Shown piece by piece: positions 2 to 19,369 of a stretch of DNA of 57,742 bases (position 1 is the first letter of the stretch; every line of letters starts with the position of its first letter). The position numbers and the translations under genes are program-made. The notes under the pieces are model-generated. The model had not been told where the DNA came from, searched no databases, and saw nothing but the letters and a program-made list of their open reading frames with translations. Source of the stretch: an uncultured virus (IMG/VR IMGVR_UViG_3300029286_002633) (taxonomy: Duplodnaviria; Heunggongvirae; Uroviricota; Caudoviricetes); IMG/VR virus record IMGVR_UViG_3300029286_002633. The stretch is one strand, 5' to 3'.

Positions 2-3000
2 TTACTCACACAACCAGAATCACTCTATGGATTCACTGCAACAAAATATACATCAACACAAATAAATCTTGCTTGGACGAATGGAGCAGGTGGTGATGGT
101 GCATATATCGAATATGCAGTAGGTTCAGCACCCGCCCCATGGAACAAAGGCTCTGGAACAATGATTGATGCAGATGGATATGTGATGGGGGAAGCATTCC
201 CACATACAGGATTGACGTCAGGCTCACGTTACTATTACAAGGCATGGACGGTGGCAAGCGATGATGGTCTTTTATCAGATGGAACCACTAAAAAACCATT
301 TGGTAATACTTCAACCAATGATGAAACAACAAATAGCATTCCTAATGCACCATCAAATCCTCTTTGTCAATCACAAACAAATCCAACAAAGATATTTTCA
401 TTGACTCCGACATTTAGTTGGACTTTCAGCGATGACGATGGAGGAGATACACAAGGTGGCTATAACATCCGTGTAGGCACAACAGCCAATAGTGGAGATA
501 TGTGGAACACTACTGTTACCAGTGCATCTCAATCTGTCATCTATGCTGGTTCAACCCTCTCACGTGGTGTGACGTATCATTGGTCAGTACGTACAAATGA
601 TACTTGGGCAGGTACGATGGGACCATATTGCGGCGACCAGACATTCAAGATAAATGCAATACCATTCGCAACGCTTACATCACCTGCGGACACATCGACA
701 GGCGTAACACTCACACCAACTCTTGGATGGGATTTCACTGACACAGATTCAGATACACAATCCAACTACCATGTGCAAGTATCAAAATATTCTGCATTCA
801 ATTCAACCGTTATTGATACAAACACATCTGGGACATCAACCAGTTATCCAGTATCATCTTCTTTGACGAATGGGACAAAATATTACTGGCGTGTCAAGGC
901 AAAAGACGGCTATGAATGGTCTCCATTTACGAGTTCATGGTACTTCACAACCACTAACCTCCAAGTAAAAAACCTTACAACATATAACTCAAATTATGTT
1001 CCAACAACAACATTTGAAGTGAACCAAAAGGTCGTTATCCAATATAATGTGACAAATATCGTTGACATGAACAATACTTACATCACGATACAAGACCCGC
1101 TTGGAACAAAACAGGTTGACCATTCAGGTGTTTCTTCTGCAAAGCAAAATTTCACTACTGATACAAATTGGAATGAAGACGTCGCTAACAGATGGAACCC
1201 TGCAACAGATTTCTATGTTTCTTCACCAAAATCCTATCAGCATGGACGAAATGGTGGTTCAGGAACATATAATAACATTGCATTATTGAAAACATCAGTC
1301 CTTTCCAATCAAACTAATCTTACTGCTGAAGTGAAATGGTATGTTGATTATAGTGCTGAGGACATGCAACGAATACTTGTCAGATATAAAGACTCGAATA
1401 ATTACGTTGCATGTTACGCCTCAAGCGTATATTCAGTTCTTGGTGTTGAAGAACGAATAGGTGGCGTGCGATATTTCGAGGAAACATCTCGATTGTTCTC
1501 TCAAGACACCTGGTATACAATGAAACTGGTGTTAGAAGGCTCAACAGCCAAAGTCTACATCAATGACGTGCTTTTAGTAACAAAGACCCATCTTGCAACA
1601 ACAACTGCTGGGCGTGTCGGTATCGGTTGTGATTCTGGATGGATTTATTTCGATGATTTCTCCGTAGGGTATCCGAACTCACGTGTAGTGAAAGCAATCA
1701 CAAACGGGTATCAATACGAGTTCAACTACACTATTCCAAACAACGTCAGTTTGCTTGGAACATGGACAATCACCGCATCGGCTGAACAACTTGGACAAAC
1801 TGCACAGCAGCAGAAGACATTTGATGTTATTTCAACAGCACCCGTGGTTCTTAACATTTCTACTTTTAACTCAACATTTATCCCAAAAACAACTTTCATA
1901 AACGGAGACACCGTAATAATACGCACATGGGTTATTGATAAATATGGGAGTGCAGGGATAAGCGTCTGCAATGTCACAATCAAAAACCCTGCAAGCACCA
2001 CCAAGATAGATAAAGCGAGCATGTGGCGGTATAGCACTCTTTCCAATGGTGCAATCTATCAGTATAATTACACGATACCCCATGAATATGCATCCGATGG
2101 AGCATGGAATGTAACCGTCCGTTGCAAGAACAACAGGACTTATTCCACCACGTCTTACGGGTCATTCATTGATGATATTGGAGCACCGGATATCACCAGC
2201 ATAAAAACATATGATGCCTATTCAAATGAGAAAACTTTATTTAATTTATATGAAAAAACGAAAGTCCTTGCTACAATCACCGATGTGAACGGCAGGGGTG
2301 ACATCTCCCAGGCAAACATCACGGTTACATCACCAAGTGGCATTAAGATAATAGAGAATATGACAATGACCGACATTGGTGATGTGACCAATGGGAATAT
2401 CTATCAGTATACTTTGGACGCTCAGAAAGGGGATGTACAGGGACCAGTATGGACGGCAGGTAAATATAATTCCGGTTTGCAATTCAATGGAATAACTGAT
2501 GAAGTCGAAGTGCCGAACGATGAATCACAGAAATATCGTGGTGTTGGGGGATACACTATATCAATCTGGGCATGGATTGACCCGTCAGAGAATGATAATG
2601 GTTTTCTCGTTGGTAAACCATGGAATGGCATGGGTCAATATAACTACTACATCTATTATTCTCCAGTCTCCAAAAAGATTTTCTTTTCAGTGGGAGGTAA
2701 TACCTCACATTACATTTCAACGGATACAAATAGCGTGAATAAAAGCGTGTGGTATTTTATCACCTGCACGATGAATTCAACGAGTATGTCAATATACCTC
2801 AACGGCACCTTGAAAGCAACTTCATTGCATGGGATAACCGATTGGGTTCCTAATCCATTGTATGGCGACCAAAATCTAAAACTGATGTTTGGTAATCTCT
2901 ATCCCAATGAACCAGAGAGTTATTATCGTCTCGCTGGAAAACTCGATGACATCCGGCTTTTTAGTAAACAACTCACTCAGACCGAAATTAATAATCTTTA

Positions 3001-6000
3001 CAATAGTCATACATATATCTCGCGTGGACTCATCGGTTATTGGAATATGGATGAAGGATGCGGGAGCACAATCAATAGTTTGCCACAGGAATTCGGAACA
3101 TATACGACCACAATTAGGACAAACGATGCTCATTATACTACATCAGAATCATCGCATTTTGTTGTTGAATGGGCAGATACACATTACTATCATCGTGTAA
3201 AATTATCATTGTCTGAAAATTTCAGCATTGACCGGACACATGAACTAATGGGGACATCTCTCACATTACCAACAGCGGTATGTGGGGGCAACAATACGAT
3301 AAAAGTGGTTAATGAACGAGGGGAGGTCATGCCGTTTTCAATCTTAAAGAAATCTGGAACCACGTATTATATCGGTTACGTTGCGAACATCAGTGCTGAT
3401 TCAGACATTAACTATTATATTTACTATAATCTAACTGGGACGGCACCGTCCATGTATAAGACATTTGCCGATGCCGCAAATGATAATCTTACTTTACGTC
3501 AATCGAATTATACGCAGGTTTATGCATCTACATCAAGCAATATCACATATGGAAAAGCAGTTACCGCAAGCGACCTCACTGGAGATGGGAAACCAGAGAT
3601 AATATGGGTTGGTCGTACAGGGTCTGGTGCTGGTAACAAAGCGTTCCTTGGGGTTTATAGCACCACTTGGTCAAATCCTTATACTTGTTCGTTAACCAAA
3701 TTGGGTTATGTCGAATGGAACCAATCAGATAATCATGGGATGGCATTTGGCTATACGGTAAATGTCACTGATTTAGATAGCGATGGTGTGAAAGAAATCA
3801 TTACTGGTGGCTGTATCTATAATGGCACGAAAAATAAGGCACAACTGAGAATCTGGAATTACACCAGCGGGTCTATTCATCTTGAAAAAGAGAGCATCTG
3901 GTCTGATACGACCGCAGGAGATACTGCAATATATGGGCTGATTTGTTTTGATTCAAACAATGATGGAACAAAGGAAATCCTCACCGCAGGGACCACAGGG
4001 ACGAACAATGCTCGTGGACAATTCGCTGTTCACACATATACATCAAATGGCGGCAGCATAACGCACGTATTCTGGAATAACTATAGTCTTGCACCATCAA
4101 CCGGCAGGAACTGGACCGAATTTTATGCAGTTGCGGCAGGAGATATTTATAACAATGGTGGTCGAGAAATAATTGTTGGTGGAGATACATTTGATTCATC
4201 AGGTACTATTAATGCGATATTGAGGATTTACCGTTATTATTCAGGAACCTGGCATGATGATTGGACAAAGAACTGGTTTGACTCACAACTCAGTGAAGTA
4301 TTCTCAATCTCCATTGGTGATGCGAACATGGATGGGAAATATGAATTCGTGACATCGGGTAACTATTTCGATGGAATCAGAGATGTTGCTCAATATAAAG
4401 TATGGGGTTCAACTGGAGGTGGGTATCCATCTACATTAACTGCATTGGACACAAATAGTTGGTATACCTACGGGTATTCTTCTGCTCTCACTACATTAAT
4501 AAAGGACATCAATAAGGATGGTCTGAACGATATCGTTACCGTTGGTTTCCAGAATGATAATGTTGTTGACCGTGGAGATTATCGTATAAGAAGATACGAT
4601 GGAACAACCACGATGACCGAACACTCGGAACTCTGGATGTATGAATTCGCACGTCGTAGCGGTGATTTCTTCGATGCCGCCTGTATCTCAGATTTGAATA
4701 ATGATGGATTTTATGAACTCATTGACACAGGAAGATATGCCCTTACTCCACCAGCCGGTACATATCTTAGGGTTCAGTCAGTTAGTGGCGTGGGGCAAAC
4801 CGTATCCACGACATCTGATAACCACGGGCAGGTTCTTTTCCCGCAACCACCGGTCTTTGGAGCCGTTCAAGTGAACCCAGCGAATCGAACATCATCAAGC
4901 ATAGGATTTAATTTCACGAAAGCAAGTGATGCTAATTCAACAGTCGTCGTCTACAAGAAAGGAAGTTATCCCACCAGCGCCACCGATGGAACCATAGGAT
5001 ACAATGGAACGGGGAGTCAAAAGAACTTCACAGGGCTTGATGCAGGAACAAAATATTACTTCTGTTTCTATTCATGGAGAAACGGGAGCGGTGAATATTC
5101 AAAAGAATGGAGGCAATCAAGCGATTACACCAATCCAGGTGAACCAACTGATTTCGATGCGAATAATCCAACAGCCTCAAGTATAGACCTTGATTGGACA
5201 AAGGGGATTAACGCTACGACAACATATATTGTCAGAAAAGAAGGCGGATACCCTGCGAATATCACTGATGGGACATTCATCTATAATGATACTGGAACTG
5301 ATACAACAGACAGCAGTTGTGAATATGCCACAACATATTATTATCGAGCATGGTCGTATAATGTGACCAGCGATTACTTCTCAGCCCTCTATGATGAAGA
5401 TACCGAGACAACCACATCAGGACCTCCGGTAGTCCTAAGCAATGCATCAACAAGTGTCGAGGAGACATCAGCAACACTTATGGGTTATCTCAGTAACGAT
5501 GGAGGCGAGGCTTGCACAGTTGGTTTCTATTATGATACGACAACAGGTGGAACAGCAAACAATGTTTCCTGTGCTGGAACATATACCACTGGGCAGGAAT
5601 TCGGAAAAGCGATATCTTCACTTACCAAAGCGGAACTCTATTATTTCAGCGGCTGGGCGCTCAATAGTAACTATTTCGTTAAAGCGAGCAATGAACTGAA
5701 ATTGCTTACCAAACCAGATGCACCAACAAACCTTGACAGTACGCTTGATTACACTGATACAGACCTCACGTGGACAAAAGCGACAGGTGGGTCAGGTGAA
5801 ACCATCGGGACACGCATCCAATATACCACATCCCCCTATCTCAATTTCGATGGAACGGGCGACTATGTTGATTGCGGTAATGGTGCCAGTTTGAATATTA
5901 CACAAAATCTTACGGTGGCGGCATGGATAAATCCTACAATAAATAATAGTTGGTCGCAGGCATCCGTTCTCACTAAATACGATGCTGTGGGAAACTATCA

Positions 6001-7318
6001 ATGGAAAATCGGTTTGACAGATACAGGACAATTACGATTCGATGTAGCAAAAGCCGCAGGTGTTTTCTTATCACCAGCCAGTGGAAGCATACCAAAAAAC
6101 ACATGGAGTTACATTGTAGGTACATTCGATGGCAGCACCGGATACGCTACAATATACATCAATGGAATATCGGTATCTTCTCTTAACTCTTTGGGACCAT
6201 TTACTATACGTCCTGTAAATCCAAAATTAATTATAGGATATGAAATGTTAAATAATAGATATTTCAATGGCTCAATTGATGATGTCAGAGTTTATTCAAG
6301 AGTACTCAACAATACTGAGATATCAAATCTCTATCATCATATTGAACCAAGTAACACCAATCTACAAGGGTGGTGGAAATTAGATGAAGGAACAGGGGCA
6401 TCTGCGGCAGATAGTTCAGGGAAAGGTAATGCAGGGACACTTCAAGGCACACCAACATGGGTTACTACGCCCACCACCATCAATGATGGATTCAACGCCT
6501 ATAATGGTACATTGGCATCAGCAACAGTCAGCAATACAGAAGATTTAACCTACTCCTTTAGAGCATGGTCATGGGTAAAAGCAGCGACTAACGACTTATT
6601 CCAATGGTCAGACACCCATGATGCATACAATGTCACTATCCCACCATTGCCACCAAGCGATGTAAACGCAGAATCCATATCTTCAACAATTAATGTTACC
6701 TGGGTTAAAACTAAATCATCTCATTATACTCTCTTAATACGAAACGAATCAGGTTGGTCAAATTATCCATCATCTATAACCAACGGCACCATTCTCTATA
6801 ATGGAACAGCACTAAACTATTATCTTGATACTGGACTTGTTGAGAAAACCATTTATTATTACAGGCTTTGGTCATACAACAGCACAACACACCTCTACTC
6901 AACAAGCAGTGTAACCATATCGAACACAACTGAGCCGACATCATTGCAGATATCCATTACACCAGATTCACTGGATTTTGGTGTCATATCACTTGGCGAT
7001 GAAGCAACGACAACAGGAAAATATTTCAACCTCACGAACTTTGGAATGGAATGCGATATTGCTATAAAGTTCGGCAATAGTCAGAATTGGACCGCAGGAA
7101 CCTTCGCAGGATTGACACATAACATATTTGCTATGAACTGGTCTGATGATGAATGGTCAAGCGAGACTAACGTCAATCCAAGCACTGGAACTACTTTAAA
7201 ACTCGGTATTGCTTATTTGGAGCATTATCTTTTCGATTTAAGATTACTTACACCAATCTCATCATCAACACTTGATGAGCAAAGTTGGGTGATGACGTTC
7301 ATCGTCACTGCCTCGTAA
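2..7318 (+). CDS. Giant secreted multidomain adhesin-like protein, 5'-truncated by the window: FN3-like repeats, Ig/MG-like repeats, two LamG domains, a ConA/DUF1080-like domain, FG-GAP/VCBS propeller, C-terminal pilin-like domain
   Basis: Frame is open from base 2 (LLTQPESLYGFTATKY...), so the ATG at 161 is internal. FN3 motifs (YYYKAW, YYWRVKAKDG), LamG motifs (FNGSIDDVRVYSRVL, GWWKLDEG), DxxxDGxxEI repeats, C-terminal ...TPISSSTLDEQSWVMTFIVTAS. Confidence 0.9.
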   Translation, partial: LLTQPESLYGFTATKYTSTQINLAWTNGAGGDGAYIEYAVGSAPAPWNKGSGTMIDADGYVMGEAFPHTGLTSGSRYYYKAWTVASDDGLLSDGTTKKPFGNTSTNDETTNSIPNAPSNPLCQSQTNPTKIFSLTPTFSWTFSDDDGGDTQGGYNIRVGTTANSGDMWNTTVTSASQSVIYAGSTLSRGVTYHWSVRTNDTWAGTMGPYCGDQTFKINAIPFATLTSPADTSTGVTLTPTLGWDFTDTDSDTQSNYHVQVSKYSAFNSTVIDTNTSGTSTSYPVSSSLTNGTKYYWRVKAKDGYEWSPFTSSWYFTTTNLQVKNLTTYNSNYVPTTTFEVNQKVVIQYNVTNIVDMNNTYITIQDPLGTKQVDHSGVSSAKQNFTTDTNWNEDVANRWNPATDFYVSSPKSYQHGRNGGSGTYNNIALLKTSVLSNQTNLTAEVKWYVDYSAEDMQRILVRYKDSNNYVACYASSVYSVLGVEERIGGVRYFEETSRLFSQDTWYTMKLVLEGSTAKVYINDVLLVTKTHLATTTAGRVGIGCDSGWIYFDDFSVGYPNSRVVKAITNGYQYEFNYTIPNNVSLLGTWTITASAEQLGQTAQQQKTFDVISTAPVVLNISTFNSTFIPKTTFINGDTVIIRTWVIDKYGSAGISVCNVTIKNPASTTKIDKASMWRYSTLSNGAIYQYNYTIPHEYASDGAWNVTVRCKNNRTYSTTSYGSFIDDIGAPDITSIKTYDAYSNEKTLFNLYEKTKVLATITDVNGRGDISQANITVTSPSGIKIIENMTMTDIGDVTNGNIYQYTLDAQKGDVQGPVWTAGKYNSGLQFNGITDEVEVPNDESQKYRGVGGYTISIWAWIDPSENDNGFLVGKPWNGMGQYNYYIYYSPVSKKIFFSVGGNTSHYISTDTNSVNKSVWYFITCTMNSTSMSIYLNGTLKATSLHGITDWVPNPLYGDQNLKLMFGNLYPNEPESYYRLAGKLDDIRLFSKQLTQTEINNLYNSHTYISRGLIGYWNMDEGCGSTINSLPQEFGTYTTTIRTNDAHYTTSESSHFVVEWADTHYYHRVKLSLSENFSIDRTHELMGTSLTLPTAVCGGNNTIKVVNERGEVMPFSILKKSGTTYYIGYVANISADSDINYYIYYNLTGTAPSMYKTFADAANDNLTLRQSNYTQVYASTSSNITYGKAVTASDLTGDGKPEIIWVGRTGSGAGNKAFLGVYSTTWSNPYTCSLTKLGYVEWNQSDNHGMAFGYTVNVTDLDSDGVKEIITGGCIYNGTKNKAQLRIWNYTSGSIHLEKESIWSDTTAGDTAIYGLICFDSNNDGTKEILTAGTTGTNNARGQFAVHTYTSNGGSITHVFWNNYSLAPSTGRNWTEFYAVAAGDIYNNGGREIIVGGDTFDSSGTINAILRIYRYYSGTWHDDWTKNWFDSQLSEVFSISIGDANMDGKYEFVTSGNYFDGIRDVAQYKVWGSTGGGYPSTLTALDTNSWYTYGYSSALTTLIKDINKDGLNDIVTVGFQNDNVVDRGDYRIRRYDGTTTMTEHSELWMYEFARRSGDFFDAACISDLNNDGFYELIDTGRYALTPPAGTYLRVQSVSGVGQTVSTTSDNHGQVLFPQPPVFGAVQVNPANRTSSSIGFNFTKASDANSTVVVYKKGSYPTSATDGTIGYNGTGSQKNFTGLDAGTKYYFCFYSWRNGSGEYSKEWRQSSDYTNPGEPTDFDANNPTASSIDLDWTKGINATTTYIVRKEGGYPANITDGTFIYNDTGTDTTDSSCEYATTYYYRAWSYNVTSDYFSALYDEDTETTTSGPPVVLSNASTSVEETSATLMGYLSNDGGEACTVGFYYDTTTGGTANNVSCAGTYTTGQEFGKAISSLTKAELYYFSGWALNSNYFVKASNELKLLTKPDAPTNLDSTLDYTDTDLTWTKATGGSGETIGTRIQYTTSPYLNFDGTGDYVDCGNGASLNITQNLTVAAWINPTINNSWSQASVLTKYDAVGNYQWKIGLTDTGQLRFDVAKAAGVFLSPASGSIPKNTWSYIVGTFDGSTGYATIYINGISVSSLNSLGPFTIRPVNPKLIIGYEMLNNRYFNGSIDDVRVYSRVLNNTEISNLYHHIEPSNTNLQGWWKLDEGTGASAADSSGKGNAGTLQGTPTWVTTPTTINDGFNAYNGTLASATVSNTEDLTYSFRAWSWVKAATNDLFQWSDTHDAYNVTIPPLPPSDVNAESISSTINVTWVKTKSSHYTLLIRNESGWSNYPSSITNGTILYNGTALNYYLDTGLVEKTIYYYRLWSYNSTTHLYSTSSVTISNTTEPTSLQISITPDSLDFGVISLGDEATTTGKYFNLTNFGMECDIAIKFGNSQNWTAGTFAGLTHNIFAMNWSDDEWSSETNVNPSTGTTLKLGIAYLEHYLFDLRLLTPISSSTLDEQSWVMTFIVTAS

Positions 7319-7333
7319 TGAAATAGTGAAAAT

Positions 7334-9859
7334 ATGATATCGAAACTGAATAAAAAAATAGTAATCTTCCTTTTATCCTTAGTGTTAATCATGACAGGCA
7401 TGCCATTTAACGTCAACAATACCGTAAAAGCCGGAGTCTCAAACTGGTATAGCCAGCATTGGGATTATTCAAAGAAGATAGTCATCGACCACACCAAGGT
7501 TTCGGCTACATTGACAAACTTCCCGGTATTGATTGATAACATTTCTGCGAGTTTCAGCCATGCTCAGGCAGATGGTGATGATTTTGTGTTTGTCGCTGCC
7601 AATAATGTAACGAAGTACAACCATGAGATTGAATCTTTTGCTTCTAATCATCTGGTTGCATGGGTGAATGTCATAAGTTTGAGTTCGACAGTTGATACGG
7701 TCATCTGGCTTTATTATGGTAATCCAAGTTGCAGTAGTCAACAGAATAAAGTTGGGACTTGGGATGCAAACTATGTGATGGTTCAGCACATGAATGATGT
7801 TACAACATCAACCATCTTGGATTCGACATCAAATGCGAACAACGGCGCAAAGAAAGCAGCGAACGAACCAATTGTGACAACATCTGGTAAGATTGGATGT
7901 GGACAGTATTTTGATGGTATAAATGACTATATTGATATCACCGGGGCTAGTGATACACGATTACAAGGAAATGTTTATACTTTTTCAACTTGGATGTATA
8001 TTATAAAAACAGGAGCGAATGATTATTCTGAATTATATTCTGTTGTTGGTTATGGTTCTGGACGAACAGGGATAAAATATGGGGATGGAAATGCAATAGG
8101 TATGGATGCAAATGCAGATTTTTACGGCATCAAGGTTGCAACTGAAAATTTAAAACTCGGTTGGCATCAGATTACTGCAATTATCAATCGTACTGATACC
8201 ATGTTCTTAGTTTATGTAGATGGAACCTACAAAGGGAACGATACGTTTACTACCTATACTCCAGCATGCACAGGTGTAAGAATAGGTGGAAATCAATTAA
8301 CTGGAAATCCTTTAGACTACACAAATGGAACAATTGATGAAACAAGACTGTCAAATGTAGTACGGAGCGCATCATGGATTTCAACGGAATACAATAATCA
8401 GGACTCGCCGTCAACTTTCTTAACCGTTGGTAACGAACAATCAAGACCTGTGAATTGGTATAACCATAATTGGTTCTATTCAAAGAAGATAGTCATCGAC
8501 CACACCAAGGTTTCAGCGACATTGACAAACTTCCCGGTATTGATTGACAACACCTCTGCGAGTTTCAGTAACGCTCAAGCAGATGGTGATGATTTTGTGT
8601 TTGTCGCTGCCAATAACATAACGAAATACAACCATGAGATTGAATCTTTTGCTTCCAATCATCTGGTTGCCTGGGTGAACGTGACAAGTCTCTCAAGCAC
8701 CGAGGATACAGTTATCTATATGTATTATGGAAATACTATATGTTCAAATCAAGAAAACCCAACAGGAGTTTGGGATGCTAATTACACAGCGGTTTGGCAT
8801 ATGGATGATTTAACAACTTCAACTATTGATGATTCAACATCTTATAATCACGATGGAACAAAAGCAGGTGCAAATACGCCTTATGAGGCAGATGGGACCA
8901 TCGGTAAAGCACAGGCATGTCATGAGGATGGTATTGCAACTTTTGAACCATATCTCAATAATAGCAAATTCACCATAAATTTTTGGTACAAAAAAACTGG
9001 TTCTCACTATGGTGATGGCGGGACTTTAGTGTGCCAAAGAATAAATCCTGATTTAACTATAAGTCTATGGAGAATTACTGAGGCGAAGCATAATTTAATA
9101 GCATATGGTTGCAAAAATGGTATAGCAAATAAACTTTGGAATAATTTAGCGATTACTGGTGTTTCAAACAACACTTGGCACTATGTTTCACTTGTCAGCA
9201 ATCATACCCATATCACTTTATATTGTGATGGACAAAGTAGCACAGTATCTTTTGATAATCCAATACCTGACATGAGTTCAGATGCTAACCATTATAGGCT
9301 GGCTAAATCAGAAGGATATTCATATTATGGCTTGTGGGGTCTTCTTGATGAATCTCGTGTAAGCAATACTAATAGAAATTCATCTTGGCTATTGGCAGAA
9401 TATTATAATCAGAACTCATCATCTACTTTTTACACGCTCGGTTCTGAAGACTCTCCTTCCGTTGATGTATCATTATCTGTCACTCCGTCTGCCGAGGCAA
9501 ACATAACTGTGGAACCAGGGACTTGGGATGGTGGTGGAGCAAACATTGGTGAGAACGCTTCGACTGCGACAAACGCATTCTGGCTGAATAACACTGGTCT
9601 TATTCAAGTCGATGTCACTATCAGCGCCTCAAACACAAGTGCATGGCATCCAGGAACATCACCAGGGCATAATCAGTTCCAATTACAATACGGTATCGTC
9701 TCCTCGTGGACAAATATCACAGAAGCCCCTCTTTCCTTCATCAATAATCTTGCCTGGGATGAATATCAACAATTCGGTCTTAAACTGTATATGCCTACTT
9801 CATCAAGCACGAATGCCGAACAGACAGCAACAATCACGTTTGAGGCAACAGTAGATTAA
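7334..9859 (+). CDS. Secreted protein: signal peptide, 2x (DUF2341-like + LamG), C-terminal pilin-like domain
   Basis: WYxxxWxYSKKIVIDHTKV...NFPVLI...WVNV...YYGN twice; IDETRLSNVVRSASWI-type LamG ends; C-terminal QFGLKLYMPTSSST...ITFEATVD. Confidence 0.88.
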   Translation: MISKLNKKIVIFLLSLVLIMTGMPFNVNNTVKAGVSNWYSQHWDYSKKIVIDHTKVSATLTNFPVLIDNISASFSHAQADGDDFVFVAANNVTKYNHEIESFASNHLVAWVNVISLSSTVDTVIWLYYGNPSCSSQQNKVGTWDANYVMVQHMNDVTTSTILDSTSNANNGAKKAANEPIVTTSGKIGCGQYFDGINDYIDITGASDTRLQGNVYTFSTWMYIIKTGANDYSELYSVVGYGSGRTGIKYGDGNAIGMDANADFYGIKVATENLKLGWHQITAIINRTDTMFLVYVDGTYKGNDTFTTYTPACTGVRIGGNQLTGNPLDYTNGTIDETRLSNVVRSASWISTEYNNQDSPSTFLTVGNEQSRPVNWYNHNWFYSKKIVIDHTKVSATLTNFPVLIDNTSASFSNAQADGDDFVFVAANNITKYNHEIESFASNHLVAWVNVTSLSSTEDTVIYMYYGNTICSNQENPTGVWDANYTAVWHMDDLTTSTIDDSTSYNHDGTKAGANTPYEADGTIGKAQACHEDGIATFEPYLNNSKFTINFWYKKTGSHYGDGGTLVCQRINPDLTISLWRITEAKHNLIAYGCKNGIANKLWNNLAITGVSNNTWHYVSLVSNHTHITLYCDGQSSTVSFDNPIPDMSSDANHYRLAKSEGYSYYGLWGLLDESRVSNTNRNSSWLLAEYYNQNSSSTFYTLGSEDSPSVDVSLSVTPSAEANITVEPGTWDGGGANIGENASTATNAFWLNNTGLIQVDVTISASNTSAWHPGTSPGHNQFQLQYGIVSSWTNITEAPLSFINNLAWDEYQQFGLKLYMPTSSSTNAEQTATITFEATVD
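7466..8679 (+). repeat. Internal ~203-nt duplication (7466-7668 and 8477-8679) encoding the DUF2341-like modules
   Basis: Manual alignment: about 14 mismatches in ~203 nt, offset 1011 nt (in frame). Confidence 0.9.
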
Positions 9860-9871
9860 GGAGAAAAATAA

Positions 9872-11254
9872 ATGAATAATAACATAAAAAGAATCCTCAT
9901 ACTATTCATCGCATTTATCCTTATTCCATTTGCTGTGCCTGTATCATCTGATACAGATACAATCGGAATTTATCTGACGCCAGGGGGCACCATCTCCATT
10001 GTTGTGAATCAAACAGCATGGGGTCCTATCTGTGGTCTTAGCGAAGAGAATATCACTGATTTCACCTGGGCAAACATCACTAACGAAGGAAACATATATG
10101 TTGATGTTACCGTGAATGCAACAGATACATCATCATGGGAACCATCAACAGCACCATCCCATAACAAATTCCAGTTGAGCATAGGCATGGAAATACCCTC
10201 TCCCACTGATTACATCTATGCTGGTGGTTTGGGAGGGGAAGTTCATCGGTATATCCCGTCTAACATGTCAAAAAAAGATGAAGCATCGTATAGTGGCAAT
10301 GTCATGGGTCTTGCAGCAGATGAGACATACATCTATGCTGGTGGTAGTGCTAATAACTTTACACAATATTGGAAATCAAACATGACTATGAAAGGAACAG
10401 CAGCCTATGGTGCTGTTGTATTAGATATTCAGGTTGATTCTGATTATATCTATGTGGTCGGAGAAGGGAACAGAGTCCGTAAGTATTGGAAAACCAATCT
10501 CACGCAGAAAGCAGTTTCTGGAGATTATAACGGCGACTTATACACTGTCTGTGTTGATGATACCTATGTCTACGCTGGTGGTGCAGTCGGTATATATCCA
10601 CATGTAGGGAGTTCTACGTATCAGTACTGGAAAACCAATCTCACGCAGAAAGCAAACACAGCATCATATGGAGGAGCAATCGAAGCAATCATTGAAGATA
10701 CTACCTACATCTATGTCGCAGGTGGAAATATTGACAAGGTTTATCAGTATTGGAAAAGCAATCTGACGAAGAAAGCAGAGAGTGTAGCCTACGGTTCACC
10801 ATCATATACCATCTGGGCGTTGGCAGATGACGACACGTATGTCTATGCCGGCGGCATGATAGTTGATAGAGTCTATCAGATTTGGAAAAGCAATATGACC
10901 AAAAAAACTGAGACTGCCAGAATCGGTTACAACATCTATCAAGTAGCCCAGATAAATGGATATGTGTATGCTGGCTGCCAAAACGGTGTGCTTAAACAAT
11001 ACTGGTCATCGAACATGACTGTCAGAAACACTGCATATTATGGTTCGGATATCCGTGGTCTTGCCTGTTCAACATCTGAACAAGGGGAATTGGTGGAAAC
11101 ATGGACTAACCTTCTGAACTCTCCAACGACGCTCATAGGCGATTTTCCATGTGATGAGCCAAAACAATTCGGATTACATGTTGATATGCCAACTTCATCA
11201 AGCACAAACGCTAATCAGACAACGATTATAACCTTTACCGCAACAGCAGACTAA
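9872..11254 (+). CDS. Secreted pilin-like protein whose domain is split by an inserted ~7-blade beta-propeller (YxYAGG...YWKSN repeats)
   Basis: Residues up to HNKFQLSIG and the last ~50 residues align with the small subunits at 11388 and 12035; about seven ~40-aa repeats lie between. Confidence 0.85.
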   Translation: MNNNIKRILILFIAFILIPFAVPVSSDTDTIGIYLTPGGTISIVVNQTAWGPICGLSEENITDFTWANITNEGNIYVDVTVNATDTSSWEPSTAPSHNKFQLSIGMEIPSPTDYIYAGGLGGEVHRYIPSNMSKKDEASYSGNVMGLAADETYIYAGGSANNFTQYWKSNMTMKGTAAYGAVVLDIQVDSDYIYVVGEGNRVRKYWKTNLTQKAVSGDYNGDLYTVCVDDTYVYAGGAVGIYPHVGSSTYQYWKTNLTQKANTASYGGAIEAIIEDTTYIYVAGGNIDKVYQYWKSNLTKKAESVAYGSPSYTIWALADDDTYVYAGGMIVDRVYQIWKSNMTKKTETARIGYNIYQVAQINGYVYAGCQNGVLKQYWSSNMTVRNTAYYGSDIRGLACSTSEQGELVETWTNLLNSPTTLIGDFPCDEPKQFGLHVDMPTSSSTNANQTTIITFTATAD

Positions 11255-11266
11255 ACCCCATAGAAT

Positions 11267-11294
11267 GTATACCTATTTGACGTAGAGTATTTAA
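11267..11294 (+). promoter_or_regulatory. GTATAC-N15-TATTTAA promoter of the small subunit gene
   Basis: gtatac ctatttgacgtagag tatttaa; nearly identical to the copy at 13377. Confidence 0.75.
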
Positions 11295-11324
11295 ATTTAC
11301 CAACCAATACAAATAACAGTATCA

Positions 11325-11368
11325 ACGAGCACGACGGGAAAGCAAGAAATCCTACTATCGTGCAGGGT
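11325..11368 (+). repeat. Conserved stem-loop motif, copy 1 (ACGA-stem...CCTA-stem-ARGG)
   Basis: GCACGA (11329-34) pairs with TCGTGC (11358-63). Confidence 0.75.
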
Positions 11369-11387
11369 AAGAATAGAGGTGAAAATA

Positions 11388-11864
11388 ATGATGAAAAAAC
11401 TAATAGCAATATTAGCCGCAGTAGTAATGGCTTGTGCATTCGCACCTATGGCATCAGCAGACGGCGTGGAGACAATCGAAGTAACCTTAACACCCAACGC
11501 ATCCGCAAACATCACTTGTAACAGAACTGCTTGGGCACCTGGTTGTGGTCTTGGAGAACAAAACCGAACAAGTCAAACCTGGGGAAACCTTGACAACTCC
11601 GGTACAGTCTCTGTTGGCGTCACCATTCAGGGTGAAAACACAGCCGCTTGGACCATACACGACACCACAGCCGCACACAATCAATTCCTTGCAGAGTTCT
11701 ATGTGACTGGTTGGGAAGGATACGATGCAGATGCAGAGACATTCGATGCAGGCATTGCCTACGATGAAAGCGTAAACTTCGGTCTCGGAGTTGACATGCC
11801 TGATTCAACCAGCGTTAGTGCAACCCAATACTTCACGATAACATTCACTGCGACAGCACTGTAA
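11388..11864 (+). CDS. Small secreted pilin-like subunit (candidate major filament protein 1)
   Basis: GAGGTGA RBS before ATG; Sec signal ending ASA; mature DGVETIEVTLTP...TITFTATAL, single domain. Confidence 0.85.
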   Translation: MMKKLIAILAAVVMACAFAPMASADGVETIEVTLTPNASANITCNRTAWAPGCGLGEQNRTSQTWGNLDNSGTVSVGVTIQGENTAAWTIHDTTAAHNQFLAEFYVTGWEGYDADAETFDAGIAYDESVNFGLGVDMPDSTSVSATQYFTITFTATAL

Positions 11865-11879
11865 GCAAGCGACCATATC

Positions 11880-11932
11880 GAACACCTCTAACCATTTTTC
11901 TCCTTCTTTTTTGGAGAAAAAATAGGGTGTTT
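11880..11932 (+). terminator. Long imperfect hairpin with T-tracts after subunit gene 1
   Basis: GAACACC...TTTTTCTCC / GGAGAAAAA...GGTGTTT arms. Confidence 0.5.
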
Positions 11933-11962
11933 GGCAGAGGGCGGCAGGGTATAGTAACAAAG

Positions 11963-12001
11963 ACGAGTACGGCGTAATAATAAAATCCTACCGTACAAGG
12001 T
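11963..12001 (+). repeat. Conserved stem-loop motif, copy 2
   Basis: GTACGG (11967-72) pairs with CCGTAC (11991-96). Confidence 0.8.
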
Positions 12002-12034
12002 AAAAATATATTTAGACTAAAAAGAGGTAAAAAA

Positions 12035-12544
12035 ATGAAAATGAAAATCTTTGCGATTTTAATCGCAATAGGCATTTGTTTTGGCTTCGTGCCAACTGCA
12101 TTTGCAGGAGAAGAAACGGACACCATCACGGTCAACATGACCCCGGCGGGAACCGCAGATATTGAGGTATACAACGCGACATCCGCAGTTGAGTCACAGG
12201 CAATCTGGAACCCAACAGCAAAAGTCGGTGATGGAAAGGCATCAACAAGCGCCACGTTCTACAACATGACCAACGTGGGAACATGTAACGTAAGTGTCAC
12301 TGTTCAAGCAAGCAACACTGCTGATTGGACACTTAGTGGCACTGCTGCTTTGGACGCATTCGTCCTTGAAACAGATTCCCCAGATGTAGAACTGACCACA
12401 TCTCCACAACCCTTCGTGAGCGACTTGCCAACTTCGGCTGGCACCCCAACAGAGCAATTCGGTTTATCTGTTACAATGCCAACCTTTTCGAGCACCAACG
12501 ACCCACAACAGTCAACAATAACATTCGTAGCAACAGCACTCTAA
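12035..12544 (+). CDS. Small secreted pilin-like subunit (candidate major filament protein 2)
   Basis: GAGGT RBS; signal peptide ending AFA; ETDTITVNMTP...QFGLSVTMPTFSST...TITFVATAL. Confidence 0.85.
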   Translation: MKMKIFAILIAIGICFGFVPTAFAGEETDTITVNMTPAGTADIEVYNATSAVESQAIWNPTAKVGDGKASTSATFYNMTNVGTCNVSVTVQASNTADWTLSGTAALDAFVLETDSPDVELTTSPQPFVSDLPTSAGTPTEQFGLSVTMPTFSSTNDPQQSTITFVATAL

Positions 12545-12552
12545 TCACATTG

Positions 12553-12592
12553 ACGAGCACGGCGTAACCCTTAAAGACCTACCGTGCAAGGC
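12553..12592 (+). repeat. Conserved stem-loop motif, copy 3, followed by a T-tract (12597-12609)
   Basis: GCACGG (12557-62) pairs with CCGTGC (12582-87). Confidence 0.8.
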
Positions 12593-12653
12593 ATCCTTTT
12601 ATTTTTTTTAAAATCCGTAACCTTTATTAATTCCCTATCTATTACAACAGGCA

Positions 12654-13361
12654 ATGAACGGACGACCAATCATCATATTTTTTTTCTTGGCTCTCCTATT
12701 AGCACCAGCAGTAGCACAAATGGCTGAACCCTATGAGATTAATCCAGCGAAATGGGTTTTCTACCTTAAAGACGATTATGAACTGAAAACAATCTATTTT
12801 AATTTCCAAATAAAAAATACAGATACAGGTCCAATAACAGTCTCCCTTGAAAAAATACCTCCGGATTATCTATATTCCGAACAATACCCCGGGGTTGTCG
12901 CTTTCCCTGATTATTCATGGATAACGATATCCGAGTCAGAAGTGACCATTCCTGCCGGTCAAACCGTTGAAGTCCCTGTTTATGTTACTATCCCTGAGCA
13001 GTATTATCCAGGTGGTGCCACGAATCAAACACCAATTTCAAACTATAATAAATCATATGAGGCGTGGTTCCTTGCTGACCAAACAAGTGGACCAGGTAAC
13101 ATTCAGGTTGATTACCGTTGCCGATGGGTGTTCCTCACACCAATAAAATATGTCCCTCCATGGCAACGACCTGGGGCGTTGCTTCCAATCCAACCTGAGA
13201 TTTTGTATGCAATACTCCTTATTGTTGTTATAACAATAATTGCAATATTGGTTTTAAGACGCAGAGGCGGTGGACGAACTAAAAAGAAAAAAGAAAAGAA
13301 AGAGAGAGGAAAAGAGCAAGAACAACCACCTGATTCCAAAGGTGGAGATGTCTGGGATTAA
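12654..13361 (+). CDS. Membrane-anchored Ig-fold protein, DUF916/PapD-like (candidate filament anchor or assembly chaperone)
   Basis: Signal peptide; FQIKNTDTGPITV...SWITISESEVTIPAGQTVEVPVYVTIP pattern; C-terminal TM helix plus basic tail. Confidence 0.6.
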   Translation: MNGRPIIIFFFLALLLAPAVAQMAEPYEINPAKWVFYLKDDYELKTIYFNFQIKNTDTGPITVSLEKIPPDYLYSEQYPGVVAFPDYSWITISESEVTIPAGQTVEVPVYVTIPEQYYPGGATNQTPISNYNKSYEAWFLADQTSGPGNIQVDYRCRWVFLTPIKYVPPWQRPGALLPIQPEILYAILLIVVITIIAILVLRRRGGGRTKKKKEKKERGKEQEQPPDSKGGDVWD

Positions 13362-13435: not shown

Positions 13436-13744
13436 ATGAAGACCAGCCTCTTCGCTGTCATAATTACAGTTTTACTCTTAGTGTTAGTTGTTTCTACTGT
13501 GAAGGCTGATAACACTGAAACCATTGAAAGTCTACTGGAATTCTATGGTCCACCAGAAGACATTAATCATGATGGTGATATTGATTACAAAGATGCATCA
13601 TTATTTGTAAATCACTATGGTCAATTTGGCGACCCAGGCGGACGAAAAGATAGTAGGTGGGATATCAACGAAGATTGGTATACAGATTACAAAGACGGTT
13701 CAAGATTTGTAAATAAATATGGTTTATCTTGGCTTGTGCCATGA
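13436..13744 (+). CDS. Secreted stand-alone dockerin protein
   Basis: Signal peptide; duplicated Ca-binding repeats DINHDGDIDYKD and DINEDWYTDYKD. Confidence 0.85.
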   Translation: MKTSLFAVIITVLLLVLVVSTVKADNTETIESLLEFYGPPEDINHDGDIDYKDASLFVNHYGQFGDPGGRKDSRWDINEDWYTDYKDGSRFVNKYGLSWLVP

Positions 13745-13766
13745 AATAAAGGAGAATGAGAAAAAT

Positions 13767-16700
13767 ATGTATAAAAAAATAAAAACAGGAATTGTAATGT
13801 TAGTGATGCTACTGTCGGTCATTTTATCTTCGACATTCTTAGTGTCTGCTGATGGACCGAACTATGTGTATTTTGCAACACCCCCGTATTCAACATATAA
13901 ACCAAGTGGAGATTATTACTTTGCAGATGAAATTTATAATGAAAGTTTCATAAATCAATCAGATGGCGCTTTACTTTATGAGAGTGTTAATGATGATAAT
14001 GATACAACAAATCTCGAATGGGATGCATTGGAAAAAATGACATTTGATTTATCAGGACAACCCCTCAGTGGCACAATTTCAAGTGTGACTTTACACGCAA
14101 TATTAAAACGAAGTGGAGGTCTTGCAGCACAATGTGGATATAAATGGCTATTAAATGATACTTCAACTGAATGGGAAAGCGCTCAATATACAGATACAAC
14201 AGCAAGTTTTTCAGAAAAAACATATGTATTGGCTACAAATCCATTTACTTCATCTGCATGGGAATGGAGTGATTTAACAACTTTAAAAGCAGGTATCTAT
14301 CAAAGTTATATTGCTTCTGGGAGACTATTATCTGTTTCAGAATATTGGCTAACGATATCAACATCATCTGCAACAGGAATAGATGTCACAATAGGAGATA
14401 ATTTTAGGATGGATGTATTCGTTAATATCAGTCAAAAAATAGACACGATATGTATTAAAAACATATCATATTTACCAGCAGGCATCGTTAATTATCTTGC
14501 GGATTCCGATAATGAACGAACAACCGGTTATACGCAAAGCGGAAATCTCTTCAACGCTACAATATTATATCAAGAACCAACCTCATCATCCACACATAAT
14601 AGTCAAGGATGGGTTGGTGGAACTGGTGAAACTGCTTCAGAGCATTTCTTATGGGCACAAAAATATACAAAAAACAGTTCAGTATACATTGCATGGTTAA
14701 TCACATGGCAAGCAGTTAGTTGCGGTAATGCGACATTTACAGTTCAACCATATTCAGGTTCTTGGGGAAGTACAGCATATAATGGAACAGACGTAGGAAC
14801 AACCTATTTCACTGGTTATGTACGTGTTCATCCGCAAACACCGACATCATTAACAACAACTCCCATAGGTGCATCACGTATTGACCTTAGTTGGACAAAA
14901 CATACTGGCGGAGATAAAACACTTATTAGATATAAAACTGGTTCAAACCCAACAAGCGTGACAGATGGTTCTTTACTTTATAATGGAACCGGAACTTCAA
15001 CAATTGATACTAATATGTCCGGAGGAGACCATATCTATTATTCAGCGTGGGGATGGAACAATTCTGTTGGTTATTATTCCTTATCCTATGATACTGCTGA
15101 TGGAGAAACAAACAATGCGCCTGTATTGAGTAGTGAAGACCCCGCAGACAATTCAGGAAATATTGATAAAGATTATCCACAAGTCAGCGTTTATATTTCA
15201 GATGGCGACGGAGACACATTTGATTGGACGATTCACGGACCATATATCACGACATCAAACGCAAACGGGGCATCTAATGGGACCAAAACCGCAGGGTTCA
15301 CAGGAACATTACCTTATGGAACAGATATCATTTGGTATGTGAATGTCACCGATGGAACTGATTGGACAAACGCAACATATAACTTCACTGTCCGTGATAC
15401 GTATGCACCAGTCCCACCAACTGGTTTCACAGCAACAACATATGACCGATTTAGAATTGACCTTACTTGGACACCAGCAAATATTGATGATTATACCTAT
15501 ATAGAATGGAGTACCGCATCAACTTGGAGTCGTGGCGCTGGGAACTTCCTTTATAATGGGACGGGTACTGGCACGTCACATACAAGTCTTGATGAAGGAA
15601 AGACCTATTATTACCAAGCATGGTCGTATAATGCAACTGATAATGTTTATTCTACATTATATGCAGAGGATTATGACACCACAACTGACGATTTGCAACC
15701 AATATTGAGCAATGAAGACCCAGAAGACCTCGATACTGATATTGATAAGAATTACCCCGGTGTCAGCATTGATATTAGTGACCCCGAAGGAGACCTGATG
15801 GATTGGACCATCGAAGTCAGCAACGGAGATAGTAACAGTGGTATTGGAGCGTCAAATGGAACGAAATACTGTGCATTATTGAACATACCATTATCATATG
15901 GTGCAACAATCACCTGGTGGGTGAATGTCACTGATGGATATGAGTGGACAAATGAAACTTATACATTCACTGTCCGTGATGAATACGAGCCATCAGCACC
16001 AACTGGCTTTGAAGCAACTGTCTTTAGCCGGTTCCAAATCGACTTGAACTGGACAAAGGCTTTCGGTAATGACAAAGTAGTCATTATCGCAAAACTCGGT
16101 TCGCCGCCAACACTTGGTGTTGATGCAGAAATTTACAATGGCACTGGAATAAGTTATAATGATGATGGATTAGACCCAAATGAGCATTGGTATTACAAAG
16201 CATATGGCTGGAATGAGACTGATGAAGTATACAGTTCTTCCTATGACTCTGCAAATGCGACAACCACTGGAAATAATCCACCAAATTTATTTACAAATGA
16301 AATACCAGAAAACGAAACCGACTACATTTCAGTATACAACAGGTACCTAAATGTAACCGTATCTGACCCTGAATCAGACCACATGTGGGTCTATTTCTAC
16401 TGGGGTAATGATACATCAATAGCATGGGTTGAAATAGATAGCGGTCAAGAAGCAAGCATTTACCTGCCTGAGTGGCTCGCTCATTCAGATGCACCGTCAG
16501 GGACTCGTAAGTTATCACAATACACTTGGTATGCCATAGCGCATGATTCGTATACTCAGACACAAAGTGATATATATAATTTCATCACATCGAAAGCATG
16601 GGATATTAACGAAGATGGGACAATTAGTTACAACGATGGAAGTAAGTTGGTTAATGTATACGGAAGCACAGTTGTAGCCGGTTCAATTGGTTCTGATATT

Positions 16701-16775: not shown

Positions 16776-16788
16776 AAATGATGATATA

Positions 16789-18654: not shown

Positions 18655-18696
18655 ATAAACCAAAATCTTTTTTAATATGTTAACCTATTCTCTTTC

Positions 18697-19335: not shown

Positions 19336-19341
19336 TGGTTA

Positions 19342-19369
19342 GTATACGTTATTGCAATAACCTATTTAA
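19342..19369 (+). promoter_or_regulatory. GTATAC-N15-TATTTAA promoter
   Basis: gtatac gttattgcaataacc tatttaa; supports a start at 19416 rather than 19335. Confidence 0.7.

What the first reader, a model, noticed from the sequence alone, without database searches (positions are those of the whole stretch)
2..13361. Candidate new archaeal donor-strand filament system: five genes sharing one pilin-like domain plus a membrane anchor/chaperone
Seen: a ~130-aa domain (TIxVxLTP...W...NxG...V.V.I...NT..W...HN.F...FGL...MPxSxST...TITFxAT) is the whole mature product of 11388 and 12035, the C-terminus of the giant proteins ending at 7318 and 9859, and the split frame of 9872. The four complete genes have ordinary Sec-type signals and none of the five has a TM anchor; the next gene (12654) has an Ig-like domain plus TM. 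Established: class 5 fimbrial subunits (CfaB, N-terminus VEKNITVTASVDP), TasA and archaeal bundling pili polymerise through an N-terminal alternating-hydrophobic donor strand, and WxL clusters combine large and small subunits with a DUF916 anchor. Inference: two major shaft subunits, large adhesin-bearing minor subunits and a membrane base form a non-type-IV filament.
Basis: partly seen in the sequence, partly recalled or inferred. Interest (0 to 1): 0.85.

Follow-up and report, generated by a model that had tools for sequence, protein, structure and literature searches.

The report
Archaeal pilus with membrane chaperone
A gene cluster, probably on a large mobile element of uncultured sediment and lake archaea, looks like a kit for building adhesive fibres the way bacterial fimbriae are built (each subunit lends a strand to the next, helped by a membrane-bound chaperone), a route not yet demonstrated in archaea, and the fibre may be plugged into the cell surface by a dockerin-cohesin clip.

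Summary
Observation confirmed: five genes share an unnamed ~130-aa domain (1,388 relatives). Its model is an incomplete Ig-like fold with a free N-terminal strand; the nearest solved folds are strand-donation filaments (AbpA, cannulae, TasA, PapA), at weak scores. The domain ends at the protein C-terminus in 147 of 150 relatives. 12654 is better read as a chaperone than as the base: PapD-like fold, best match WxLIP (Z 11.3), a conserved Lys/Arg pair, and it follows a small pilin in 17 of 20 related loci. Chromosomal relatives in one Thermoplasmatota order add a membrane protein carrying only the donor strand (12 of 12). The window's gene at 2 lacks the strand (tip adhesin), 9872 carries cargo in a loop, and 13436 (strand plus dockerin) is the candidate base. 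No complex could be modelled and no filament has been seen. Works like WxL/Elr and CPR Pam pili; not a member by sequence. This scan already described the chromosomal version on other DNA (e1-2792579); new here are the element-type subfamily, loop-inserted cargo, the dockerin base and an upstream stem motif.

The parts
2..7318 (+). Giant adhesin (last 2438 aa of a 3718-aa protein): LamG, lectin, FG-GAP propeller, Fn3-like repeats, then an acceptor-only pilin domain at 6938-7318; candidate tip adhesin
   Evidence: no donor strand
7334..9859 (+). Adhesin with two DUF2341+LamG units and a C-terminal pilin domain (9461-9859) preceded by a donor-like strand in register; minor subunit (tip, or in-shaft like CPR Pam pilins)
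9872..11254 (+). Pilin with N-terminal donor strand and a ~295-aa repeat (propeller-like) domain inserted in a loop (about 10193-11077); decorated shaft subunit
11267..11295 (+). Promoter-like motif GTATACCTA..TATTTAAA, repeated at 13377, 27062, 33530, 50088
   Evidence: function inferred
11324..11367 (+). Conserved stem motif upstream of 11388 (copy 1 of 3)
11388..11864 (+). Small pilin, candidate major shaft subunit; donor strand at about 11469-11495
   Evidence: codon bias
11962..12000 (+). Conserved stem motif upstream of 12035 (copy 2)
12035..12544 (+). Second small pilin, candidate major shaft subunit
12552..12591 (+). Conserved stem motif upstream of 12654 (copy 3)
12654..13361 (+). Membrane-anchored single-domain PapD/WxLIP-like protein, candidate pilin chaperone; conserved Lys33 and Arg157
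   Evidence: linkage
13436..13744 (+). Signal peptide + donor-like strand + dockerin, no pilin body; candidate terminator/base subunit
18697..19335 (+). Cohesin-like domain + TM helix; candidate membrane socket for dockerins
   Evidence: Pfam Cohesin E 0.0013, below cut-off
13719..18654 (+). Two secreted Fn3-rich proteins ending in dockerin-like repeats (same surface network, not pilins)
48375..49034 (+). Cohesin + dockerin adaptor, both above Pfam cut-off

Best explanation
A chaperone-assisted, usher-free donor-strand pilus of archaea. Subunits are exported by Sec; each ends in an incomplete Ig-like domain whose last strand is the protein's C-terminus. The membrane-anchored 12654 grips that C-terminal strand (Lys33/Arg157 as carboxylate anchor) and fills the groove with its own strand, then is displaced by the N-terminal strand (I-x-V-x-L-x-P) of the next subunit. 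Order: the giant adhesin at 2 (acceptor only) starts the tip; 11388 and 12035 make the shaft; 9872 and probably 7334 are interspersed subunits that display cargo; a donor-only protein ends assembly. In chromosomal relatives that terminator has PKD domains and a TM helix; in this element-type cluster it is probably 13436, which would clip by its dockerin into membrane cohesins. Shown: shared domain, conserved strand, C-terminal position, predicted folds, gene linkage, donor-only and acceptor-only architectures. Inferred: polymerisation, chaperone activity, order of subunits, dockerin anchoring (about 0.45), host and mobile-element status.
For: Model pLDDT 96.5 with residues 1-17 unpaired. Foldseek ranks 1-8 are all filament or fimbrial subunits (AbpA, two cannulae, PapA, TasA fibre, TLP-1a, thread, PapE); VIA aligns residues 1-134, strand included, on TasA fibre (Z 7.0, 2.9 A, 121 aligned) and cannula (Z 6.5, 3.8 A, 126). 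Mature positions 6, 8, 10 are hydrophobic in 98, 100, 100% of 86 rows. 147 of 150 relatives end within 2 residues of the domain end. The strand is kept in 19 of 19 loop-insert proteins but in only 10 of 39 with N-terminal cargo. 12654: best of 48,161 chains is WxLIP (Z 11.3, 3.0 A, 114 aligned); YadV, Caf1M, CsuC, PapD at E 1e-5 to 5e-5; a basic residue on the last strand in 21 of 21 aligned homologs that reach it and on the first strand in 14 of 15 pilin-adjacent ones. A 12654 homolog directly follows a small pilin in 17 of 20 loci. 12 of 12 chromosomal TM proteins begin with a donor strand, have no pilin body, and resemble their own locus's pilin strand more than others (29.5 vs 21.3; 0 of 20,000 permutations; the pattern occurs once in 4,907 other windows of those proteins). 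11388 and 12035 have their own promoter-like motif and a distinct codon bias (50:21 vs 651:1242, p 1.6e-9).
Against: No Foldseek hit of the pilin reaches E 0.001 and its best VIA scores (Z 8.5-7.8) are generic PapD-like/MSP/ASH domains; the tool warns that Z under 8 may be a common arrangement. The 12654 fold is shared with non-chaperones (best Foldseek hit a Bacteroides carbohydrate-binding protein, ciliary ASH domains at Z 10.1), its Pfam WxLIP score is under the cut-off, and it has one extracellular domain where PapD, ElrE and PamC have two. The 12 loci of the cognate-strand test fall into about six related groups, so the permutation p is inflated. The strand of 13436 scores 4.4, within the range of 13 other secreted window proteins (maximum 5.4); only 2 of its 4 orthologs exceed that (11.8, 7.7). 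Three relatives carry a 107-110-aa tail after the domain. AlphaFold coordinates were not seen, only secondary structure.
Confidence: 0.73

Rival explanations
1. Strand-donation filament that self-assembles without a folding chaperone (TasA/AbpA/cannula style); 12654 only nucleates or tethers it.
For: The nearest full-length folds are AbpA, cannulae and TasA, for which no chaperone was found (PMC9245690 passages; cannulae title in listing). Atlas structure row with TM 0.74 to a cluster rich in Peptidase_M73/camelysin.
Against: The model shows no self-complementation, whereas AlphaFold monomers of AbpA self-complement. 12654 has the PapD/WxLIP fold and basic pair; a separate donor-only anchor exists in relatives; strict C-terminal ending of the domain fits a carboxylate-binding chaperone.
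Confidence: 0.11
2. Not a long fibre: the domain is a C-terminal sorting/attachment tag, and the proteins form short hetero-oligomers or a surface coat held by 12654 (the older 'static platform' view of WxL clusters).
For: Many family members are giant adhesins scattered singly away from the cluster (9 copies but 1 chaperone in G002); 5 of 86 members hit NCBIfam choice-of-anchor D weakly, best 6e-5; no filament has been observed.
Against: Stand-alone subunits bear both strand and groove and show the codon bias expected of abundant proteins; donor-only and acceptor-only end pieces make sense only for a chain; the platform model was revised to a pilus for WxL (10.64898/2026.10.17.759780, discussion).
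Confidence: 0.11
3. Structural fibres of a virus particle encoded by a large archaeal virus.
For: The window has no tRNA or housekeeping gene among those scanned, many ORFans and a repeated promoter-like motif; some Atlas look-alike clusters are labelled viral.
Against: Sec signals and a membrane chaperone point to the cell surface; the same operon is chromosomal among housekeeping genes in many genomes; no virion gene among 30 ORFs scanned in PHROGs; no confirmed relative in four IMG/VR scans; no BFVD match at E 0.001.
Confidence: 0.04

Closest known systems
WxL/Elr pilus of Bacillota (ElrA-E; 10.64898/2026.10.17.759780)
   Same: Small pilins with N-terminal donor strand and incomplete Ig fold; large tip adhesins with C-terminal acceptor domain; membrane-anchored chaperone (12654's best structural match is WxLIP); donor-only terminator; no usher.
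   Different: No member matches Pfam WxL; chaperone has one extracellular domain; no sortase/LPxTG, anchor is a TM-PKD protein or possibly dockerin-cohesin; cargo also inserted in a loop of shaft subunits; host is archaeal, whereas the preprint reports the system as confined to Bacillota.
Pam pili of CPR bacteria (PMC13278184)
   Same: PapD-like chaperones with a C-terminal TM helix, internal donor strand after an N-terminal domain (as 7334), donor+TM terminator (PamR), two major pilins in one operon.
   Different: Pam majors are two-domain 39-55 kDa proteins; here majors are single 14-kDa domains; no sequence comparison was possible.
Chaperone-usher fimbriae (P, type 1, class 5 CFA/I, archaic Csu)
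   Same: Fold neighbours for both pilin and chaperone; C-terminal strand ending at the terminus; basic residue pair placed like the classical carboxylate anchor; CsuA/B is the top (non-significant, E 0.15) PDB sequence hit.
   Different: No usher gene seen, chaperone is membrane-bound and single-domain, Pfam fimbrial families not matched.
Archaeal strand-donation filaments: AbpA bundling pili, threads (Saci_0406), Tafi, cannulae; bacterial TasA
   Same: Sec signal, N-terminal donor strand, best full-length structural matches.
   Different: No chaperone was identified for Abp, threads or Tafi in the passages read; no SipW/TafD-type peptidase or TapA-like gene in this cluster; subunit smaller; no sequence relationship detected.
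Cellulosome-type cohesin-dockerin scaffolds
   Same: Dockerin-tagged secreted proteins (incl. a C25 peptidase) and TM-anchored cohesins follow the pilin genes.
   Different: Here one dockerin protein appears to carry a pilus donor strand; no such link was found in the papers searched.

Membership tests
WxL/Elr pilus | Subunits match the WxL domain (PF13731) | tested here: not met
   0 of 86 members at E<=0.01; not among the 25 shown of 58 families at E<=1; Atlas feature neighbour with WxL only 0.83
WxL/Elr pilus | Membrane-anchored DUF916/WxLIP-like chaperone in the operon | tested here: met
   By fold: WxLIP 9i1y is the best of 48,161 chains, Z 11.3; by sequence only weak (10 of 17 at E<=0.1, under cut-off)
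WxL/Elr pilus | Two-domain chaperone (DUF916 + DUF3324) | tested here: not met
   12654 ectodomain is one ~145-aa domain followed by the TM helix
WxL/Elr pilus | Tip adhesin with C-terminal acceptor domain and no donor strand | tested here: met
   Gene at 2; 29 of 39 N-cargo relatives score under the donor threshold
WxL/Elr pilus | Donor-only terminator attached by sortase (LPxTG) | tested here: not met
   Donor-only proteins exist but end in PKD+TM or dockerin; no sortase among the window ORFs scanned
Chaperone-usher pili | Incomplete Ig fold with N-terminal extension free in the monomer | tested here: met
   Model secondary structure, fold neighbours; prediction only
Chaperone-usher pili | Outer-membrane usher | tested here: not met
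   No usher family among 30 window ORFs scanned; none evident in the 20 related loci by size, TM pattern or similarity, though not every ORF there was scanned in Pfam
Chaperone-usher pili | Chaperone binds subunit C-terminal carboxylate through conserved basic residues | tested here: inconclusive
   Basic pair conserved and domain strictly C-terminal; the feature is described in PMC4654587 and the Elr preprint; equivalence of the positions to PapD Arg8/Lys112 is recalled, binding untested
Chaperone-usher pili | Donor-strand exchange shown in a complex or fibre | not testable with these tools
TasA/AbpA bundling pili | Sequence relationship to TasA/camelysin (Peptidase_M73) | tested here: not met
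   1 of 86 members, E 0.029
TasA/AbpA bundling pili | TasA-like fold in the fibre state | tested here: inconclusive
   Z 7.0, 2.9 A over 121 residues (TasA fibre); Z 6.7, 6.6 A (AbpA); tied with other folds
Tafi / DUF1102 fimbriae | Dedicated TafD signal peptidase and DUF5305 gene; Tat or DUF1102 subunits | tested here: not met
   No DUF1102 hit at E<=0.01 in 86 members; no peptidase S26 or DUF5305 among window ORFs scanned; features taken from PMC11821415 section 17
Type IV pili / archaella | Class III signal peptide and N-terminal hydrophobic helix kept in the mature protein | tested here: not met
   Signals end in AxA-type sites followed by acidic residues; model has no helix
Cohesin-dockerin scaffold | Dockerin and cohesin domains in linked genes | tested here: met
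   Dockerin above cut-off in 20904, 48375 and in three orthologs of 13436; 13436 itself 19.3 vs 22.9 bits; cohesin above cut-off in 48375, below in 18697

The most novel reading that the evidence does not exclude
A family of ~100-kb or larger elements of uncultured Thermoplasmatota equips its host with its own chaperone-built pilus system: one membrane chaperone serves a library of exchangeable subunits (tip adhesins up to 3,700 aa, shaft subunits with cargo grafted into one loop), the fibre is ended by a donor-strand-dockerin adaptor that clips into membrane cohesins, joining pilus and cellulosome-type chemistry, and subunit stoichiometry is set by a new structured RNA element in front of the shaft and chaperone genes.
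Probability: 0.35. Interest if true: 0.87.

Novelty: new variant of a known kind. Interest (0 to 1): 0.7.

Why it matters
The archaeal strand-donation filaments solved so far were reported without an identifiable chaperone, and one paper argues the chaperone-usher route cannot operate in archaea. A PapD/WxLIP-like membrane chaperone tightly linked to such pilins in a third of the genomes of one archaeal order would extend the usher-free chaperone pathway (just shown for WxL and proposed for CPR Pam pili) to the third domain and bear on where fimbrial chaperones arose. The system is small, Sec-dependent and testable by two-gene co-expression. It would also give a function to an unannotated family of over a thousand clusters, explain giant adhesins in sediment archaea, and, if the dockerin base holds, show a new way of anchoring a pilus and a natural loop for displaying 100-550-aa cargo on a fibre.

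Tried and rejected
Complex prediction (pilin oligomer; pilin plus 12654) was not available, so strand insertion in trans is untested. No whole genome is held for the window. Pfam and NCBIfam give no consistent family for the pilin; PDB sequence searches give nothing significant for pilin (best CsuA/B E 0.15) or 12654; pilin and 12654 profiles are unrelated (probability 2.3). No Pam or ElrD chain appeared in the fold lists; absence there does not exclude them. IMG/VR: four scans, no confirmed relative; BFVD no match at E 0.001. Rfam: no family at gathering score in the window. The stem motif is not unusually stable on its own (z -0.7 to -2.1 in six copies, -3.3 in the divergent L003 copy) and an exact-pattern search found it once in two genomes. 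No RNA holder listed. The conserved Cys in close relatives' signal peptides is not kept across the family, so a lipoprotein or dedicated peptidase reading was dropped. 12654 as the structural base was rejected in favour of chaperone. The Woesearchaeota label of L003 is probably misbinning: 5 of the other 400 genomes of that phylum have only weak hits (E about 1e-7). Literature searches for an archaeal chaperone-assisted pilus, for pili of this lineage and for a dockerin-anchored pilus listed none; the library lacks most subscription papers, and the supplements of the Elr and Pam preprints, which could list archaeal hits, were not seen.
Full report
Observation. The shared domain is real: 11388 matches 9872 (E 2e-22), 7334 (2e-18) and 12035 (2e-12); the C-terminus of the gene at 2 matches 7334 (4e-10); no sixth copy exists in the window. 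The gene at 2 is the last 2438 aa of a 3718-aa protein. 9872 carries the domain in two halves around a ~295-aa repeat insert; contigs from two other studies span both junctions unchanged.

The family. A nine-sequence profile finds 1,388 representatives at E<=0.001, 361 at 1e-10. Of 153 retrieved proteins, 150 have the C-terminal half and 147 of these end within two residues of the domain end; three carry a 107-110-aa tail and three are fragments. In 86 single-domain members, mature positions 6, 8 and 10 are hydrophobic in 98, 100 and 100% of rows, followed by Pro12 in 57. A profile of that strand (built from those members, so circular for them) scores 6 or more in 85 of 90 short proteins, 19 of 19 proteins with an insertion inside the domain, 10 of 39 with N-terminal cargo and an intact domain, and 2 of 4 others. 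Insertions of 94-569 aa fall mostly at one loop, profile columns ~101-116. Cargo is varied: LamG, FG-GAP, Kelch/WD40 propellers, NosD, DUF285, glycine-rich, DUF2341 (35 proteins scanned). No Pfam or NCBIfam family is matched consistently.

Pilin fold. AlphaFold2 with 86 sequences gives mature 11388 pLDDT 96.5, pTM 0.85, an all-beta body, and residues 1-17 confidently placed but in no sheet (I saw secondary structure only). Foldseek has no hit at E 0.001, but ranks 1-8 are AbpA, two cannula structures, PapA, TasA fibre, TLP-1a, the Sulfolobus thread and PapE. VIA-align's top rows are generic PapD-like/ASH/MSP domains (Z 8.5-7.8); rows covering residues 1-134 include TLP-1b (Z 7.7, 3.7 A, 124), TasA fibre (7.0, 2.9 A, 121), AbpA (6.7), cannula (6.5, 3.8 A, 126), thread (6.2), with Tafi at 6.1. 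These scores are middling: they fit an incomplete Ig fold with an extended donor strand but do not prove homology.

12654. Its model (pLDDT 81.6) is best matched by WxLIP of Enterococcus faecium (Z 11.3, 3.0 A, 114 aligned), ahead of ciliary ASH domains (10.1) and the fimbrial chaperones YadV, FimC, EcpB, CfaA, SafB, CsuC (9.8-9.0); Foldseek gives YadV, Caf1M, CsuC and PapD at E 1e-5 to 5e-5, behind a Bacteroides carbohydrate-binding protein; the Atlas names WxLIP_PGBD and PapD_N rows at TM 0.68. Arg157 on the last strand is invariant in 17 close homologs and Lys33 is kept in 16; among 22 aligned distant and close homologs the last-strand position is Lys/Arg in 21 of 21 that reach it, the first-strand position in 14 of 15 pilin-adjacent copies, and Glu in 7 of 7 second paralogs. 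Classical chaperones hold the subunit's C-terminal carboxylate by two basic residues of domain 1 (PMC4654587, passages; Elr preprint); that these positions correspond is my recalled alignment to PapD. This explains why the domain always ends the protein.

Related loci. The family is present at E<=1e-10 in 18 of 401 sampled genomes of the phylum of a bin titled 'Thermoplasmatales archaeon' and in 35 of 118 genomes of one order of it; 17 of the 18 belong to that order. That it is Thermoprofundales/DHVEG-1 is my inference; no call names it. I fetched loci from 20 of these genomes or bins that include a small pilin (G181 and 17 further order members were not fetched): in 17 the next gene after the pilin or pilin pair is a 12654 homolog, in two it is a diverged TM protein with a similar last strand, in one (L046) it is unmatched. 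Most are chromosomal, among housekeeping genes and in megabase contigs, with the order: donor-less giant adhesin, TM protein, small pilin(s), chaperone, beta-helix TM protein, second chaperone paralog. In 12 of 12 loci with that TM protein it begins, right after the signal, with a donor-type strand, has PKD domains (3 of 3 scanned) and no pilin body, and its strand resembles its own locus's pilin strand (mean BLOSUM 29.5 vs 21.3; 0 of 20,000 permutations). These loci form about six related groups, so the statistic is overstated, but the strand occurring as a free module on an unrelated anchor is the strongest sequence evidence that it acts in trans. It mirrors ElrB (Elr preprint section 9) and PamR (PMC13278184 section 8).

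What is particular to this window. It lacks the PKD-TM anchor. In the window, L003 and L051 the gene after the chaperone is a ~100-aa protein: signal, short strand, dockerin. In five orthologs the best donor-like 8-mer falls in the same register just after the signal; scores are 11.8, 7.7, 4.4 (window), 3.3 and 2.6, against a maximum of 5.4 in 13 other secreted window proteins. TM-anchored cohesin-like genes and more dockerin proteins follow. I read 13436 as the terminator that clips the fibre to membrane cohesins, at about 0.45. 11388 and 12035 sit behind their own promoter-like motif and have C-ending codon bias (50:21 vs 651:1242 in nine neighbours, p 1.6e-9), as expected of shaft subunits. 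A ~40-nt motif precedes 11388, 12035 and 12654 and recurs before pilin or chaperone genes in L001, L051 (twice) and, diverged, L003; its 6-bp stem changes on both sides in four of seven copies with loops of 8-32 nt; no Rfam match. An RNA stability or translation element is likely but untested.

Replicon. The window shows no tRNA, no housekeeping family among 30 ORFs scanned, no virion family among 30, ORFan runs and a repeated promoter-like motif. Its 12654 and close homologs lie on contigs of 89-120 kb. Syntenic homologs of window genes occur on contigs of bin G002, one with a Cdc6/Orc1-like gene, two with geranylgeranyl-reductase-like genes. Element-type domains fall outside the two supported chromosomal clades, so this is a separate subfamily, not a recent copy. 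A large plasmid-like or integrated element is likely (about 0.75); host linkage rests on binning. The DNA is held by 16 runs, six with half the words or more, from lake or freshwater metagenomes.

Comparison. It works like the WxL/Elr pilus (10.64898/2026.10.17.759780: abstract, sections 8, 9, 15, passages; reported as confined to Bacillota) and the CPR Pam pili (PMC13278184: abstract, results part 1, section 8): membrane chaperone, no usher, acceptor-only tip, donor-only base. It is not a member of either by the tests run. [quoted passage not shown] Passages of PMC12448462 and PMC13502194 showed nothing on this system. Searches listed no archaeal chaperone-assisted or dockerin-anchored pilus; no supplements were read.

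Verdict. Donor-strand polymer about 0.88, 12654 as chaperone about 0.78, whole model 0.73. New variant of a known kind; interest 0.70. The missing piece is any model or experiment showing the strand in a neighbour's groove.

Noticed in passing
window 11324-11367, 11962-12000, 12552-12591; L001:1877, L051 (two copies), L003 near 10560: Conserved ~40-nt motif with a covarying 6-bp stem and variable loop in front of pilin and chaperone genes; no Rfam match; also visible as spurious N-terminal extensions of four database pilins (P0004, P0034, P0053, P0082).
   Followed up: partly
window 11267, 13377, 27062, 33530, 50088: Repeated promoter-like motif (GTATACCTA...TATTTAA), suggesting an element-wide regulon.
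   Followed up: partly
window 13436-23938, 48375-49619: A cohesin-dockerin surface network: TM cohesins, a cohesin-dockerin adaptor, Fn3-dockerin proteins and a dockerin-tagged gingipain-like C25 peptidase (20904, Pfam E 8e-24); the same array occurs in L003 and L065.
   Followed up: partly
P0094, P0095, P0144; L051:4060-5790: Three pilin-domain proteins continue into a conserved ~108-aa tail whose start resembles, by recall only, the helical head of type IV pilins/pseudopilins; the only exceptions to the C-terminal rule.
   Followed up: no
window 10193-11077, 53400-53850, 55616-56530: The repeat inserted in pilin 9872 also occurs in the subtilase 51693 and the beta-helix protein 55469: a mobile propeller-like module with no good Pfam match.
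   Followed up: no
window 36267-38558 (-): Radical SAM protein interrupted by an intein with LAGLIDADG endonuclease; the syntenic homolog in L058 is 316 aa, i.e. apparently intein-free.
   Followed up: partly
window 38845-42876; L058: Four genes (radical SAM, 38845, 39756, 42112) conserved in order in a related contig; three have no family match; 38845 has the same codon bias as the small pilins, so may be highly expressed core genes of the element.
   Followed up: partly
window 29475-32873: 1132-aa protein made of short helical-looking repeats, no Pfam or PHROG match.
   Followed up: no
L039-L053, L073: Chromosomal operons carry a second chaperone paralog with Glu in place of the first basic residue (7 of 7), and a conserved ~730-aa beta-helix TM protein of unknown role.
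   Followed up: partly
P0105: A 3320-aa protein with two loop-split pilin domains in tandem.
   Followed up: no
L074, L075, L076: Weak C-terminal matches (E about 1e-7) in large proteins of the phylum of bin G001; L075 has adjacent WxLIP-like TM genes; Atlas neighbours include Microcaldota, CPR and Elusimicrobiota clusters, so a wider superfamily is likely.
   Followed up: partly
L046 (G360:C6): A 91-kb, 45% GC contig with adhesin and small pilin flanked by two unmatched Ig-like genes; looks like a different element carrying a related system.
   Followed up: no
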